Shown piece after piece: positions 34,729-35,904 of a stretch of 40,927 bases of DNA. The position numbers were made by a program, and so were the translations under genes. Location of the stretch: IMG/VR virus record IMGVR_UViG_2541047877_000008. The stretch is one strand, 5' to 3'. The notes under the pieces are model-generated. The model did no database searches. It saw only the letters and a list, made by a program, of their open reading frames with translations, and was not told the DNA's origin. The first letter of the stretch is position 1, and each line of letters begins with the position of its first letter. The stretch is from a virus (taxonomy: Duplodnaviria; Heunggongvirae; Uroviricota; Caudoviricetes).

Positions 34729-34745
34729 ATTACCTTTGAGGTACG
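34729..34745. promoter_or_regulatory. Operator-like palindrome ATTACC-TTTGA-GGTACG
   Basis: Between the cro-side terminator and the cII-position gene. Confidence 0.4.
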
Positions 34746-34754
34746 AATAGATAT

Positions 34755-34778
34755 GAAAAGACCGCCGGATGGCGGTCT
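34755..34778 (-). terminator. Intrinsic terminator between the Cro-like and cII-position genes (tR1-like)
   Basis: 8-bp stem AGACCGCC / GGCGGTCT with loop GGAT (34759-34778); on the minus strand followed by TTTTCATAT. Confidence 0.5.
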
Positions 34779-34799
34779 ACAGAGGGTTGTGGCTGGATA

Positions 34800-35030
34800 T
34801 CATGAGTAGAAGAAGTATGCCAGTTCTGCTTTTGAGCGCAGCCATTGTCTTGATTTACAGGCTTTAAAAAGCCCATCCATCAATACCTTACCTGGCATTT
34901 TGCGCTTACCTGTTAAGTGAGTCTGGATATAGTGACTCGTCGTTCCGGCTTCCTGTGCGAAGGCTTCACGCTCATCCGGAGTAAGTGCAAGCCAGTGCTT
35001 TTTGAAATCGAAATGTCCGTTATCGCTCAT
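34800..35030 (-). CDS. Cro-like small HTH regulator
   Basis: ORF track 76 aa; divergent from the repressor gene across the operator cluster. Confidence 0.5.
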   Translation of the reverse strand: MSDNGHFDFKKHWLALTPDEREAFAQEAGTTSHYIQTHLTGKRKMPGKVLMDGLFKACKSRQWLRSKAELAYFFYS

Positions 35031-35065
35031 AGCTATTGCCTGATATTTATTTCAGATAATAAATA

Positions 35066-35130
35066 TTCACCTATAAGGTAACAAAAATCAAGGATAGTTA
35101 CCCATGAGGTGCATTTACCTGTTGGGTAAT
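35066..35130. promoter_or_regulatory. OR-like operator cluster (three 17-bp sites: 35066-35082, 35097-35113, 35114-35130)
   Basis: TTCACC-TATAA-GGTAAC, GTTACC-CATGA-GGTGCA, TTTACC-TGTTG-GGTAAT; centre spacings 31 and 17 bp; between the cro-like start (35030) and the repressor start (35185). Confidence 0.6.
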
Positions 35131-35184
35131 ATTGCTTTAAATTGAATCATCTTCTGATTCAGATATGAGGCGATTTTCCAGAAA

Positions 35185-35769
35185 ATGAAAAGTATCCAGG
35201 ACGTCCGCAGGCAAAATCTCAACGACTTGATCGACCGTGAATTCAATGGTGTTCAGACGCGGATGGCTGAAAAACTTGGAACTCAGGCAAATCTGGTAAA
35301 CCGCTGGGCTCTTGGCAAGAAGGTTATCGGCGACCAGGTTGCGCGAAAAATTGAAGCTGCCGCCAATAAACCCCGTAACTGGCTTGATATCGATCGCTCG
35401 CTTTCTCAGGAAGGTTTTCAGCCTGTCGGACCAAGCGACATTGGTCAACTGGCGGCTCACAACCTGGAACGCTGGATGAGCGAAAGCCGCGACCTTTCAA
35501 CGCAGGGAAAACTTCACCGCGCATCCGGCGTCGCCCAGGTGACAATCAGCCGCCTGTTAAACAATGAGGTCAGCGTTTCCATTTCCACCCTGGAGAATGT
35601 TGCATCCGCATTCGGGCGTCACGGCTATGAATTACTGATTCACCCGCACGACCCTGCGACTATCAACTATGACCGCTCGCGCTACGCTTTGTTACCCGAA
35701 ACCGAGAAAGCAAAGATCGAAAGTTACATTGAATTTGTCATCAACCAGAACGAAAAAAACAAACAATAA
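35185..35769 (+). CDS. Prophage repressor (CI-like), XRE-family with two HTH-like segments
   Basis: ORF track 194 aa; HTH-like segments around QTRMAEKLGTQANLVNRW and LHRASGVAQVTISRLL; flanked by operator clusters and followed by a terminator. Confidence 0.65.
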   Translation: MKSIQDVRRQNLNDLIDREFNGVQTRMAEKLGTQANLVNRWALGKKVIGDQVARKIEAAANKPRNWLDIDRSLSQEGFQPVGPSDIGQLAAHNLERWMSESRDLSTQGKLHRASGVAQVTISRLLNNEVSVSISTLENVASAFGRHGYELLIHPHDPATINYDRSRYALLPETEKAKIESYIEFVINQNEKNKQ

Positions 35770-35790
35770 AATCATATTTTTCAGTAAGTA

Positions 35791-35813
35791 AGCCGCCTTC
35801 TGGCGGCTTTTTT
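35791..35813 (+). terminator. Rho-independent terminator after the repressor gene
   Basis: AGCCGCC-TTCT-GGCGGCT followed by TTTTT. Confidence 0.7.
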
Positions 35814-35825
35814 ATTGCCTGTTAG

Positions 35826-35904
35826 ATTACCTAACGGGTAATTTTTTTAACTCATATCTATTGACATCAAACCATATACGCATAATTATTACCTCAACGG
35901 TAAC
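35826..35904 (+). promoter_or_regulatory. OL-like region: perfect palindrome ATTACC-TAACG-GGTAAT (35826-35842), TTGACA box (35861-35866), second site ATTACC-TCAAC-GGTAAC (35888-35904)
   Basis: Read from sequence; precedes the rightward recombination operon; -10 element ambiguous (CATAAT 35881-35886 candidate). Confidence 0.55.

What the first reader, a model, noticed from the sequence alone, without database searches (positions are those of the whole stretch)
34729..35904. Immunity region organised like a mirror-image lambda switch, with a 17-bp operator palindrome ATTACC-N5-GGTAAT
Three 17-bp sites sit between the divergent Cro-like and repressor genes (35066-35082, 35097-35113, 35114-35130) and two more flank a TTGACA box downstream of the repressor terminator (35826-35842 is a perfect palindrome; 35888-35904 has one mismatch). 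This is the OR/OL layout expected for a CI-type repressor, but the half-site spacing (N5) differs from lambda (N3) and the repressor has two HTH-like segments in one chain.
Basis: partly seen in the sequence, partly recalled or inferred. Interest (0 to 1): 0.6.

Follow-up and report, generated by a model that had tools for sequence, protein, structure and literature searches.

The report
Known phiV10/epsilon15 prophage repressor operators
The palindromes are real and are almost certainly the binding sites of the prophage's master repressor, but this is the already described immunity system of phiV10/epsilon15-type phages, which sit in about one in ten E. coli genomes, so the finding is correct but ordinary.

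Summary
The sites exist at the stated coordinates. The motif is far above chance: 15 matches in the window against about 1 expected.

The window is an integrated phiV10/epsilon15-type (Uetakevirus) prophage. Its 194-aa repressor is 100% identical to that of phiV10 and ZX5. It is a full-length homologue of the crystallised SPC32H Rep (PDB 5D50, E=4e-42).

The same TTACC-N5-GGTAA motif is enriched at syntenic positions in phiV10, epsilon15, SPC32H, Tyrion and a Klebsiella relative. The epsilon15 GenBank record already labels its perfect copies "protein_bind: repressor".

The lambda-like OR/OL reading holds in layout, with four corrections:
- The repressor is not CI-type. It has no S24 cleavage domain. 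It pairs with a LexA-controlled antirepressor gene (6678-6935, LexA box 6641-6656).
- By homology with SPC32H Rep, the second HTH-like segment is a dimerisation domain, not a second DNA reader.
- OR2 is only a half-site and OR1 is weak.
- OR/OL are part of a genome-wide set of about 14 operators. Two conserved promoter cassettes each carry two operators exactly 62 bp apart.

Binding was not tested here. Novelty: already known. Interest: low.

The parts
35185..35769 (+). Repressor gene rep (194 aa). N-terminal HTH DNA-binding domain, middle HTH_3-like dimerisation domain, C-terminal tetramerisation segment.
   Evidence: ORF. Pfam HTH_3 at 106-147 and weak YdaS/Cro-like match at 21-61. Full-length match to SPC32H Rep 5D50_A, E=4e-42. 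100% identical to the phiV10 and ZX5 repressors.
34800..35030 (-). Cro-like gene (76 aa), divergent from rep.
   Evidence: ORF. PHROG 35 'transcriptional repressor', E=8.7e-13. Corresponds to phiV10p41.
35066..35082 (.). OR1, the operator nearest cro (TTCACCTATAAGGTAAC). It overlaps the spacer and -10 of the candidate PR.
   Evidence: Every lineage has one TCACC/GGTGA half here, but on opposite sides in different lineages.
35062..35091 (-). Candidate PR (leftward, towards cro): -35 TTGATT (35091-35086), 18-nt spacer, -10 AATATT (35067-35062).
   Evidence: The -35 (AAAAATCAA on the + strand) is invariant in five lineages. An alternative reading is TTGTTA-17-TATTAT at 35084-35056. Inferred; no transcript mapping.
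35097..35113 (.). OR2, degenerate (GTTACCCATGAGGTGCA). Only the left half-site is intact.
   Evidence: It aligns with full operators in epsilon15, SPC32H and the Klebsiella phage. The same degenerate GGTGCA is seen in Tyrion.
35114..35130 (.). OR3 (TTTACCTGTTGGGTAAT), directly abutting OR2 (17 bp centre to centre). It overlaps the -35 of the candidate PRM.
35114..35143 (+). Candidate PRM (rightward, towards rep): TTTACC, 18-nt spacer, TAAATT.
   Evidence: Both hexamers are conserved in the OR alignment. Inferred.
35790..35809 (+). Intrinsic terminator after rep.
   Evidence: Annotated as a terminator in phiV10.
35826..35842 (.). OL upstream operator (ATTACCTAACGGGTAAT), 19 bp upstream of the PL -35.
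   Evidence: Core invariant in five lineages.
35861..35889 (+). PL: TTGACA, 17-nt spacer, AATTAT. It drives the recombination, excision and methylase genes.
   Evidence: 10 of 12 matches. The -35 is invariant in alignment A2.
35888..35904 (.). OL downstream operator (ATTACCTCAACGGTAAC). It overlaps the last 2 bases of the -10 and the start region. It lies 62 bp from the upstream operator.
34729..34745 (.). Operator just downstream of the cro terminator (34778-34759, - strand) and upstream of the phiV10p42 homologue and the replication genes.
   Evidence: Syntenic sites in phiV10, epsilon15, SPC32H, Tyrion and the Klebsiella phage.
32721..32799 (-). Second promoter cassette (P2) between the replication genes and DUF1064. 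Operators at 32783-32799 and 32721-32737 are 62 bp apart. -35 TTGATT at 32764-32759; -10 TTTAAT at 32741-32736. The ATG comes 2 nt after the downstream operator, so the Shine-Dalgarno sequence lies inside the operator.
29807..29841 (-). Two tandem operators, 18 bp centre to centre, between a terminator (29877-29860) and the small-terminase start codon.
   Evidence: The same pair sits upstream of terS in phiV10, epsilon15 and Tyrion. SPC32H has a perfect site there plus a 3-mismatch partner 18 bp away.
26236..26273 (+). Operator 26257-26273 with TTGACA at 26236-26241. It lies between the head operon (leftward) and tRNA-Arg (rightward).
   Evidence: The syntenic site in epsilon15 (2931-2947) is annotated 'repressor'.
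26864..26892 (+). Promoter ATGACC-17-TATAAT with operator 26874-26890 in its spacer and -10. It lies upstream of an accessory gene (PHROG 4780).
8005..8021 (+). Operator upstream of an accessory gene cluster (8047-9648).
   Evidence: TTGCAG-17-TACTAT read by eye at the same geometry as PL.
6939..6982 (+). Promoter TTGCAA-17-TATATT with operator 6966-6982 in the same geometry as PL. It drives isrK-like RNA, C4 antisense RNA and the Bro-N/Ant-C antirepressor gene (7249-7935).
6586..6602 (.). Operator in the divergent tailspike/ant region, 13 bp upstream of the ant promoter -35.
   Evidence: The same layout is seen in SPC32H. The epsilon15 counterpart (19895-19911) is annotated 'repressor'.
6616..6658 (+). 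Ant promoter (TGGATA-17-TACTGT) overlapped by a LexA box, TACTGTATAAATATACAGTT (6639-6658).
6678..6935 (+). Small antirepressor gene ant (85 aa).
   Evidence: Match to PDB 5D50_E 'Anti-repressor protein', E=1.4e-46.

Best explanation
The 17-bp palindromes (consensus A-TTACC-W5-GGTAA-T) are most likely the operators of the prophage's master repressor Rep (35185-35769). Rep belongs to the SPC32H/epsilon15 Rep family.

DNA recognition. Pairs of Rep's N-terminal HTH domain would read the two TTACC half-sites, whose hexamer centres are 11 bp apart. The middle HTH_3-like domain and the C-terminal segment would assemble Rep into dimers and tetramers.

At OR. Three operator positions lie between rep and the cro-like gene. 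OR1 covers the core of the leftward promoter. OR2 and OR3 abut each other and overlap the -35 region of the rightward rep promoter.

At PL, and at a second promoter downstream of the replication genes. One operator overlaps the -10 and start site. A second sits exactly 62 bp upstream, just behind the preceding terminator. A Rep tetramer may hold both and clamp the promoter.

Elsewhere. Further operators sit at the small terminase gene, the head operon/tRNA region, the tailspike/ant region, the C4-antirepressor operon and two accessory-gene promoters. Rep would then silence about nine transcription units directly.

Induction. DNA damage inactivates LexA, which de-represses the small Ant protein. 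Ant then takes Rep off the DNA.

Shown here: the sites, their enrichment, their cross-genus conservation in position and spacing, and the homologies of Rep and Ant.
Inferred: binding itself, the promoter assignments and tetramer bridging.
For: - Enrichment is 14-fold or more in the window. Each of five relatives shows the same: phiV10 14 against 0.64 expected, epsilon15 18 against 0.92, SPC32H 18 against 0.48, Tyrion 15 against 0.75, Klebsiella BUCT711 13 against 0.42.
- Sites are syntenic. In the PL and P2 cassettes of five lineages, the main invariant blocks are the two operator cores, the -35 (TATTGA) and the A-TTACC junction, with 62-bp spacing (63 bp in the Klebsiella PL). The OR alignment keeps three operator positions.
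- The Rep proteins are only 43-78% identical, yet the N-terminal recognition-helix segment N36-L-V-N-R-W41 is invariant. This matches the unchanged operator consensus.
- Rep matches SPC32H Rep (5D50_A) over its full length, E=4e-42. Ant matches 5D50_E, E=1.4e-46. A perfect LexA box lies at the ant promoter, and LexA-type boxes lie next to ant in phiV10, epsilon15, SPC32H and Tyrion.
- The epsilon15 depositors annotated the seven perfect copies as 'protein_bind: repressor'.
- Overexpressing the identical repressor in ZX5 abolished free phage and cut endolysin and holin transcripts by 99.97-99.99% (PMC9782041; identity).
- SPC32H Rep binds palindromic DNA as a tetramer. It has an N-terminal DNA-binding domain, a middle dimerisation domain and a C-terminal tetramerisation domain (PMC9638917; PMC9986798).
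- The tetramer-interface residues F187 and F190 of SPC32H Rep correspond to Y181 and F184 here.
- The central 5 bp are 77% A/T against about 50% in the genomes.
Against: - No binding experiment for this protein on these sites was available. The primary SPC32H and epsilon15 papers are not in the held library, so I could not check which operator DNA was used there.
- The Cro-like protein, or another phage regulator, could share or own some sites.
- OR2 is only a half-site in this lineage.
- The operators upstream of terS have no recognisable sigma-70 promoter, so their role there is unclear.
- Promoter calls are consensus matches, no more frequent than in shuffled sequence.
- A 62-bp loop is short, and bridging by one tetramer is conjecture.
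Confidence: 0.8

Rival explanations
1. The palindromes are bound mainly by a different phage regulator rather than by Rep. Candidates are the Cro-like protein (34800-35030), the gp49/p55-type regulator upstream of terS, or the PerC-like activator.
For: The Cro-like protein matches a PHROG family of transcriptional repressors. By analogy with lambda it could use the same operators. The sites at late-gene starts (terS, head operon) lack obvious sigma-70 promoters, as expected if an activator acts there.
Against: Sites cluster on both sides of rep in the classic operator positions. Rep's N-terminal recognition helix is invariant across lineages that share the motif. The epsilon15 depositors assigned the sites to the repressor. 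Shared use by the Cro-like protein would add to the main explanation rather than replace it.
Confidence: 0.1
2. The motif is not a protein-binding site. It is a by-product of a duplicated promoter and translation-start cassette: the left half feeds the -10 and the right half (A)GGTAA serves as a Shine-Dalgarno sequence.
For: At PL, P2 and 6966 the -10 hexamer runs into ATTACC. At P2 the ATG comes 2-4 nt after GGTAAA in all five lineages. At 26874 the degenerate right half forms TATAAT.
Against: The upstream operator of each 62-bp pair, OR2/OR3, and the second terS site have no -10 or Shine-Dalgarno role, yet they keep both half-sites. Two-fold symmetry with an A/T-rich centre is typical of sites bound by dimeric HTH proteins. 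Conservation covers both arms equally.
Confidence: 0.04
3. It is a canonical lambda-type CI. A dimeric repressor with RecA-stimulated self-cleavage acts only at OR and OL, and the other copies are incidental.
For: The divergent gene layout, three plus two sites and the 17-bp operator length resemble lambda. Distant homologues of the N-terminal domain in Pseudomonas and Moraxella phages do carry LexA/S24-type C-termini with GNSMEP or GDSMMP motifs.
Against: This protein has no S24 domain. Its C-terminal two-thirds match the SPC32H Rep oligomerisation and Ant-binding region 5D4Z, E=4e-20. A cognate LexA-controlled Ant is present. The dispersed copies are syntenic in five lineages.
Confidence: 0.03
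4. The sites are bound by a host (enterobacterial) transcription factor that the phage has recruited.
For: All phages that carry the motif infect Enterobacteriaceae, so a shared host factor cannot be excluded on distribution alone.
Against: I know of no E. coli regulator with this consensus (own knowledge, not tested). The tight link with the rep locus and the invariant Rep recognition helix favour Rep.
Confidence: 0.03

Closest known systems
Rep-Ant-LexA lysis-lysogeny switch of Salmonella phage SPC32H (Kim & Ryu 2013; Kim et al. 2016; PDB 5D50 and 5D4Z)
   Same: Rep is homologous over its full length (E=4e-42). Ant is homologous (E=1.4e-46). A LexA box lies at the ant promoter. The operator consensus and site layout match: an OR triple at 17 + 30/31 bp, 62-bp pairs at PL and P2, and sites at terS and ant/tailspike. 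Same genus (Uetakevirus).
   Different: Rep is only about 42% identical. OR2 is a half-site here. OL has two operators, not three. This prophage also carries a second, Bro-N-fused antirepressor behind isrK and C4 RNAs. The aromatic tetramer-interface residue F187 is Y here.
Predicted repressor-binding sites of phage epsilon15 (Kropinski et al. 2007; GenBank AY150271 / NC_004775 'protein_bind: repressor')
   Same: The palindrome ATTACC-N5-GGTAAT is identical. It occupies the same genomic positions.
   Different: The depositors marked only the seven perfect copies. The imperfect OR triple and other 1-2-mismatch sites are unannotated there. phiV10-type records carry no operator annotation at all.
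Lambda CI/Cro switch (OR1-3, OL1-3, PR, PRM, PL)
   Same: Divergent repressor and cro-like genes, three operator positions between them, 17-bp operators with two-fold symmetry, and a PL-type promoter downstream of the repressor gene that drives the recombination and excision genes.
   Different: There is no S24 autocleavage domain. Induction is by antirepressor. The repressor is tetrameric. Hexamer spacing is N5 rather than N3. Operator pairs bracket promoters at 62 bp. Many operators lie outside the immunity region. No N- or Q-type antiterminator was identified here.
Dispersed-operator repressors: P1 C1 (about 17 operators, including Op51 at the c4-icd-ant immI operon) and mycobacteriophage L5 gp71 'stoperators' (own knowledge)
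   Same: One repressor has many sites spread over the genome at the boundaries of transcription units. Here one operator controls a C4-RNA plus antirepressor operon, as in P1 immI. Several sites lie just behind terminators, where they could block read-through as stoperators do.
   Different: The P1 and L5 sites are asymmetric, and those repressors are unrelated in sequence. A roadblock function has not been shown here.
pLS20 Rco / p53-type 'TetDloop' tetrameric DNA-looping regulators (PMC9986798)
   Same: SPC32H Rep is reported to share the architecture of an N-terminal DNA-binding domain plus a C-terminal tetramerisation domain. This suggests cooperative binding to two sites. The conserved 62-bp operator pairs found here fit that idea.
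   Different: Looping by Rep has not been shown. Rep has an extra middle dimerisation domain.

Membership tests
SPC32H/epsilon15-type Rep (antirepressor-controlled tetrameric phage repressor) | Full-length sequence homology to SPC32H Rep (N-terminal DNA-binding domain, middle dimerisation domain, C-terminal tetramerisation and Ant-binding domain) | tested here: met
   phmmer against PDB: 5D50_A E=4e-42 over residues 1-190; 5D4Z_A (residues 92-198) E=4e-20. Alignment A1.
SPC32H/epsilon15-type Rep (antirepressor-controlled tetrameric phage repressor) | No LexA/CI-type S24 autocleavage domain | tested here: met
   Pfam scan finds only HTH families.
SPC32H/epsilon15-type Rep (antirepressor-controlled tetrameric phage repressor) | Cognate small Ant protein encoded in the same phage | tested here: met
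   Window 6678-6935 matches 5D50_E 'Anti-repressor protein', E=1.4e-46.
SPC32H/epsilon15-type Rep (antirepressor-controlled tetrameric phage repressor) | ant promoter overlapped by a LexA box | tested here: met
   CTGTATAAATATACAG at 6641-6656, 22 nt upstream of the ant ATG. Same layout in SPC32H. LexA binding itself was not tested.
SPC32H/epsilon15-type Rep (antirepressor-controlled tetrameric phage repressor) | Hydrophobic tetramer interface (F187 and F190 in SPC32H Rep) | tested here: inconclusive
   The equivalents are Y181 and F184. F184 is invariant and Y is a conservative change. Oligomeric state was not measured.
SPC32H/epsilon15-type Rep (antirepressor-controlled tetrameric phage repressor) | Sequence-specific binding of Rep to the palindromic operators, and release by Ant | not testable with these tools
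   Needs EMSA or footprinting. Only indirect support: conservation, the invariant recognition helix, and the ZX5 overexpression phenotype.
Epsilon15-type operator set (ATTACC-N5-GGTAAT) | Same consensus, enriched and at syntenic positions | tested here: met
Lambda-type CI repressor (LexA-like, S24 peptidase) | C-terminal S24 peptidase domain with Ser/Lys dyad for RecA-stimulated self-cleavage | tested here: not met
   No Peptidase_S24 hit. The C-terminal part matches the SPC32H Rep oligomerisation domain instead.
Lambda-type CI repressor (LexA-like, S24 peptidase) | OR/OL layout: tripartite operator between divergent cI and cro, plus operators at PL | tested here: met
   This is layout only, and OR2 is degenerate.

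The most novel reading that the evidence does not exclude
Rep may work as a promoter clamp plus roadblock. A single tetramer bridges two in-phase operators fixed 62 bp apart that bracket PL and P2. This spacing, together with an adjacent A/T tract, is kept in five lineages whose repressors are only about 43% identical. Single or tandem operators placed directly behind terminators and on top of Shine-Dalgarno sequences and start sites (terS, P2, accessory genes) stop read-through, as L5 stoperators do. One repressor would then silence about nine transcription units directly. These include a P1-immI-like isrK/C4-antirepressor operon and apparent accessory (moron) genes. No lambda-style N/Q cascade would be needed. 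None of this is excluded by the evidence. As far as the secondary sources go, the repression mechanism of this family 'has not been extensively characterized' (PMC9986798).
Probability: 0.3. Interest if true: 0.45.

Novelty: already known. Interest (0 to 1): 0.2.

Why it matters
The practical value is for annotation. This prophage type sits in about 10% of complete E. coli genomes and in Salmonella, Enterobacter and Klebsiella relatives. Yet phiV10-type records carry no operator annotation, and RefSeq calls the repressor only an 'HTH domain-containing protein'.

A weight matrix for A-TTACC-W5-GGTAA-T, together with the 62-bp cassette, would mark the immunity region and the boundaries of transcription units in these prophages. 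It would also predict which accessory genes are silent in lysogens.

The conserved 62-bp operator pairs give a concrete, testable handle on how the tetrameric SPC32H-type Rep represses. This does not change the current understanding of phage immunity.

Tried and rejected
- Primary papers. I tried to read Kropinski 2007 (PMC2698709), Kim & Ryu 2013 (PMC3807360) and Kim 2016 (PMC4983836 and its DOI). None is held. A full-text search for ATTACC/GGTAAT with 'operator' and 'phage' returned only unrelated papers. Prior knowledge therefore rests on GenBank features, PDB entries, secondary citations and my own memory of the abstracts.
- Single-chain pseudo-dimer. I considered that the two HTH segments of one chain read the two half-sites. 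I rejected this. Only the N-terminal recognition helix is invariant. In SPC32H Rep the second segment is a dimerisation domain.
- Operator as terminator. The scan flagged 35814-35842 followed by a T-run as terminator-like. The stem is AT-rich with G-T pairs. The same palindrome occurs where no T-run follows. I treated this as incidental, or at most a back-up terminator.
- Distant homologues as a covariation test. The Pseudomonas PseuP_224 cI and a Moraxella Mcat9 protein share the N-terminal domain. They have S24-type C-termini and different recognition helices. The inverted repeats found in their regions differ from the motif. This is suggestive only and I did not pursue it.
- Sites at 3438 and 16983 (2 mismatches each). 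They lie inside long ORFs, have mismatches in the core, and have no counterpart in relatives. Their number matches the chance expectation of about 1. I excluded them.
- Structure prediction of Rep. Not run, because full-length sequence homology to a solved structure already settles the fold.
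Full report
**What is in the sequence**

Mismatches are counted against ATTACC-N5-GGTAAT.
- 35826-35842: 0 mismatches.
- 35888-35904: 1 mismatch.
- 35114-35130: 1 mismatch.
- 34729-34745: 2 mismatches.
- 35066-35082 (TTCACCTATAAGGTAAC): 3 mismatches.
- 35097-35113 (GTTACCCATGAGGTGCA): 4 mismatches, with only the left half-site intact.

TTGACA at 35861-35866 pairs with AATTAT at a 17-nt spacing, 10 of 12 matches. The repressor gene is followed by a clean intrinsic terminator at 35790-35809.

The motif is far above chance. There are 15 matches at up to 2 mismatches against 1.05 expected, and no shuffle out of 100 reached 15. 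The core TTACC-N5-GGTAA at up to 1 mismatch gives 14 against 0.86 expected.

Most copies lie outside the finding's span: at 6586, 6966, 8005, 26257, 26874, 29807, 29825, 32721 and 32783. Two further hits, at 3438 and 16983, sit inside long ORFs. They have core mismatches and fit the chance expectation.

**What the element is**

The window is an integrated phiV10/epsilon15-type podovirus (genus Uetakevirus).
- Positions 34000-37000 are 98% identical to phiV10 and several E. coli phages.
- The published att core ATTGAGTGGGAATGATT is at 1873-1889 (core sequence from PMC9782041).
- The 1.2-kb immunity region occurs at 95% identity or more in 541 of 5426 complete E. coli genomes.
- The 194-aa product of 35185-35769 is 100% identical to phiV10p40 and to the ZX5 repressor.
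- Overexpressing the ZX5 repressor abolished free phage. It also lowered endolysin and holin transcripts by 99.97-99.99% (PMC9782041). That paper did not map operators.

**The repressor family**

Pfam finds HTH_3 at residues 106-147. It also finds a sub-threshold Cro/YdaS-like HTH at 21-61, and no S24 peptidase domain.

Against the PDB the protein matches SPC32H Rep over its whole length (5D50_A, E=4e-42). Its C-terminal part matches 5D4Z (E=4e-20).

Secondary sources describe SPC32H Rep as follows (PMC9638917; PMC9986798):
- It has an N-terminal DNA-binding domain, a middle dimerisation domain and a C-terminal tetramerisation domain.
- The tetramerisation domain is also the antirepressor-binding domain.
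- It binds palindromic DNA as a tetramer.
- It is taken apart by a tetrameric antirepressor, Ant.

The 'two HTH segments' are therefore real. By homology the second is an oligomerisation module, not a second reading head.

The rest of that system is present in the window:
- 6678-6935 encodes an 85-aa homologue of Ant (5D50_E, E=1.4e-46).
- A perfect LexA box (CTGTATAAATATACAG, 6641-6656) overlaps its likely promoter, TGGATA-17-TACTGT.
- SPC32H has the same arrangement.
- LexA-type boxes lie next to ant in phiV10, epsilon15 and Tyrion.

From my memory of the Kim & Ryu 2013 abstract, Rep is not cleaved during the SOS response. It is inactivated by LexA-controlled Ant. I could not re-read the paper.

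**Are the palindromes Rep operators?**

There is no binding experiment here, so the case is comparative.
1. The core motif is enriched in every relative examined. Counts are phiV10 14 against 0.64 expected, epsilon15 18 against 0.92, SPC32H 18 against 0.48, Tyrion 15 against 0.75, and Klebsiella BUCT711 13 against 0.42.
2. The copies are syntenic. There are two sites 18 bp apart before terS, and one before the head operon. One or two lie in the ant/tailspike region, one before the lysis cassette and one before int. An OL group follows rep, and an OR group lies between rep and cro. One site follows the cro terminator, and a pair follows the replication genes.
3. The Rep proteins of these lineages are only 43-78% identical. 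The N-terminal HTH recognition segment N36-L-V-N-R-W41 is nevertheless invariant. This fits an unchanged operator.
4. The epsilon15 depositors already marked the seven perfect copies as 'protein_bind: repressor, lysogeny'. They did not mark the imperfect OR sites.
5. Pooling 47 sites gives A-TTACC-W5-GGTAA-T. The core is nearly invariant and the centre is 77% A/T.

That test is therefore passed.

**Anatomy of the switch**

I aligned OR from five lineages. Three operator positions are kept.
- OR1 is nearest cro. It always has one TCACC/GGTGA half, on the left in the window and Tyrion and on the right in epsilon15, SPC32H and the Klebsiella phage. This suggests selection for a weakened site.
- OR2 and OR3 abut each other, 17 bp centre to centre.
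- OR2 is a full site in epsilon15, SPC32H and the Klebsiella phage. It is degenerate (GGTGCA) in the window and Tyrion.
- The invariant block AAAAATCAA between OR1 and OR2 reads TTGATT on the lower strand. With AATATT 18 nt away this gives a leftward PR whose spacer and -10 are covered by OR1.
- A conserved TTTACC-18-TAAATT gives a rightward PRM candidate whose -35 lies in OR3. OR2 is centred near -45.

These promoter assignments are consensus-based inferences.

**The 62-bp promoter cassette**

PL and a second promoter, P2 (32721-32799, lower strand, upstream of DUF1064), share one design. The order is terminator, upstream operator, 19 bp, -35 (TTGACA or TTGATT), 17 bp, then a -10 whose last two bases begin the downstream operator.

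I aligned ten such cassettes, PL and P2 from five lineages. The main invariant blocks are the two operator cores, TATTGA of the -35 and the A-TTACC junction. The operators are 62 bp apart (63 bp in the Klebsiella PL), with an A/T tract beside the upstream one.

At P2 the start codon follows the downstream operator by 2-4 nt in all lineages. The Shine-Dalgarno sequence therefore lies inside the operator.

The same -35, -10 and operator geometry recurs at 6966 (TTGCAA-17-TATATT), and by eye at 8005.

Sixty-two base pairs is about six helical turns. Two in-phase palindromes bracketing a promoter suit a repressor with two pairs of DNA-binding domains. I propose bridging by one tetramer, but this step is inferred.

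**The other sites**

- Before terS, two operators follow a terminator (29877-29860) and precede the ATG. No sigma-70-like promoter is present. Their role is unresolved; a roadblock or an activator-dependent late promoter are both possible.
- The 26257 site sits beside TTGACA, pointing towards a tRNA-Arg(UCU) gene at 26595-26671. It also lies upstream of the leftward head operon.
- The 26874 site lies in the spacer and -10 of ATGACC-17-TATAAT, before an accessory gene.
- The 6966 promoter reads into an isrK-like RNA (7018-7094) and a C4 antisense RNA (7114-7200). It then reaches a second antirepressor gene (7249-7935). That protein has a Bro-N domain and a C-terminal domain related to the small Ant. 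This resembles the C1-controlled c4-icd-ant immI operon of P1 (own knowledge).

**Comparison and verdict**

It is not a member of the CI/LexA-like family, because the S24 domain is absent.

It is a member of the SPC32H/epsilon15 Rep-Ant family on every feature I could test. These are full-length homology, the absence of S24, a cognate Ant, a LexA box at ant, and the same operator set.

The dispersed operator network is closer in logic to P1 C1 or L5 gp71 than to lambda.

The motif is already annotated as repressor-binding in epsilon15. The repressor family has been crystallised and functionally studied. The identical repressor has been tested in ZX5. I therefore rate the finding as already known and of low interest.

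Three descriptions appear to go beyond the annotations I could see:
- the imperfect OR triple;
- the invariant 62-bp operator-promoter-operator cassette;
- the operator on the C4/antirepressor operon.

They are incremental, and I could not check them against the primary papers.

Noticed in passing
window 7018-7200 (+), with 6939-6982 and 7249-7935: An isrK-like sRNA (74 bits) and a C4 antisense RNA (79.5 bits) lie in tandem between a Rep-operator promoter and a Bro-N antirepressor gene. The C-terminal 80 aa of that protein are homologous to the small Ant. This looks like a P1 immI-like second antirepression module beside the LexA-controlled one.
   Followed up: partly
window 26595-26671 (+): A tRNA-Arg (anticodon UCU) gene lies between the terminase and head operons. 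It is downstream of a TTGACA promoter that carries operator 26257-26273 and is followed by a strong terminator at 26715-26750. SPC32H has a tRNA-Arg at the equivalent place.
   Followed up: partly
window 8047-9648 (+) and 26921-27742 (+): These are accessory (moron-like) genes of unknown function (PHROGs 5739, 3630, 4780), absent from phiV10 at these places. Each is preceded by a terminator-like hairpin and a promoter with a Rep operator. That would make them silent in lysogens, which is unusual for morons. The 26874 operator/-10 sequence (ATTACCTTAAAGGTATA) occurs identically upstream of int in SPC32H. Its 15-base core TTACCTTAAAGGTAT is identical upstream of int in phiV10. Epsilon15 and Tyrion have near-identical versions.
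   Followed up: partly
window 1687-1810 (-) and 1873-1889: An STnc490 Hfq-binding sRNA (146 bits) lies in the flank just outside the att core ATTGAGTGGGAATGATT. The window therefore holds a prophage junction. The right end of the window stops exactly at the integrase start codon (40927).
   Followed up: no
window 35814-35842 (+): The upstream OL operator, together with the 12 bases before it, can form a 12-pair hairpin followed by T7. This was flagged as terminator-like and lies directly after the true rep terminator. It may be a back-up terminator or may be incidental.
   Followed up: no
window 35066-35082; L003 33387-33403; L004 34436-34452: OR1 keeps exactly one TCACC/GGTGA variant half-site in every lineage. 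The variant half lies on the cro-proximal side in the window and Tyrion, and on the opposite side in epsilon15, SPC32H and the Klebsiella phage. This suggests selection for a weakened or Cro-preferred operator.
   Followed up: partly
window 36374-38133 (+): The RecE-like exonuclease (36374-37195) and RecT (37165-38133) are separate overlapping ORFs here. The phiV10 record annotates a single fused recET gene.
   Followed up: no
L010 2495-3232; L011 2498-3151: Distant homologues of Rep's N-terminal domain in Pseudomonas phage PseuP_224 and Moraxella phage Mcat9 carry LexA/S24-type C-termini. The Rep family therefore looks like a CI-type DNA-binding domain that has exchanged its cleavage domain for an antirepressor-binding oligomerisation module.
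   Followed up: partly
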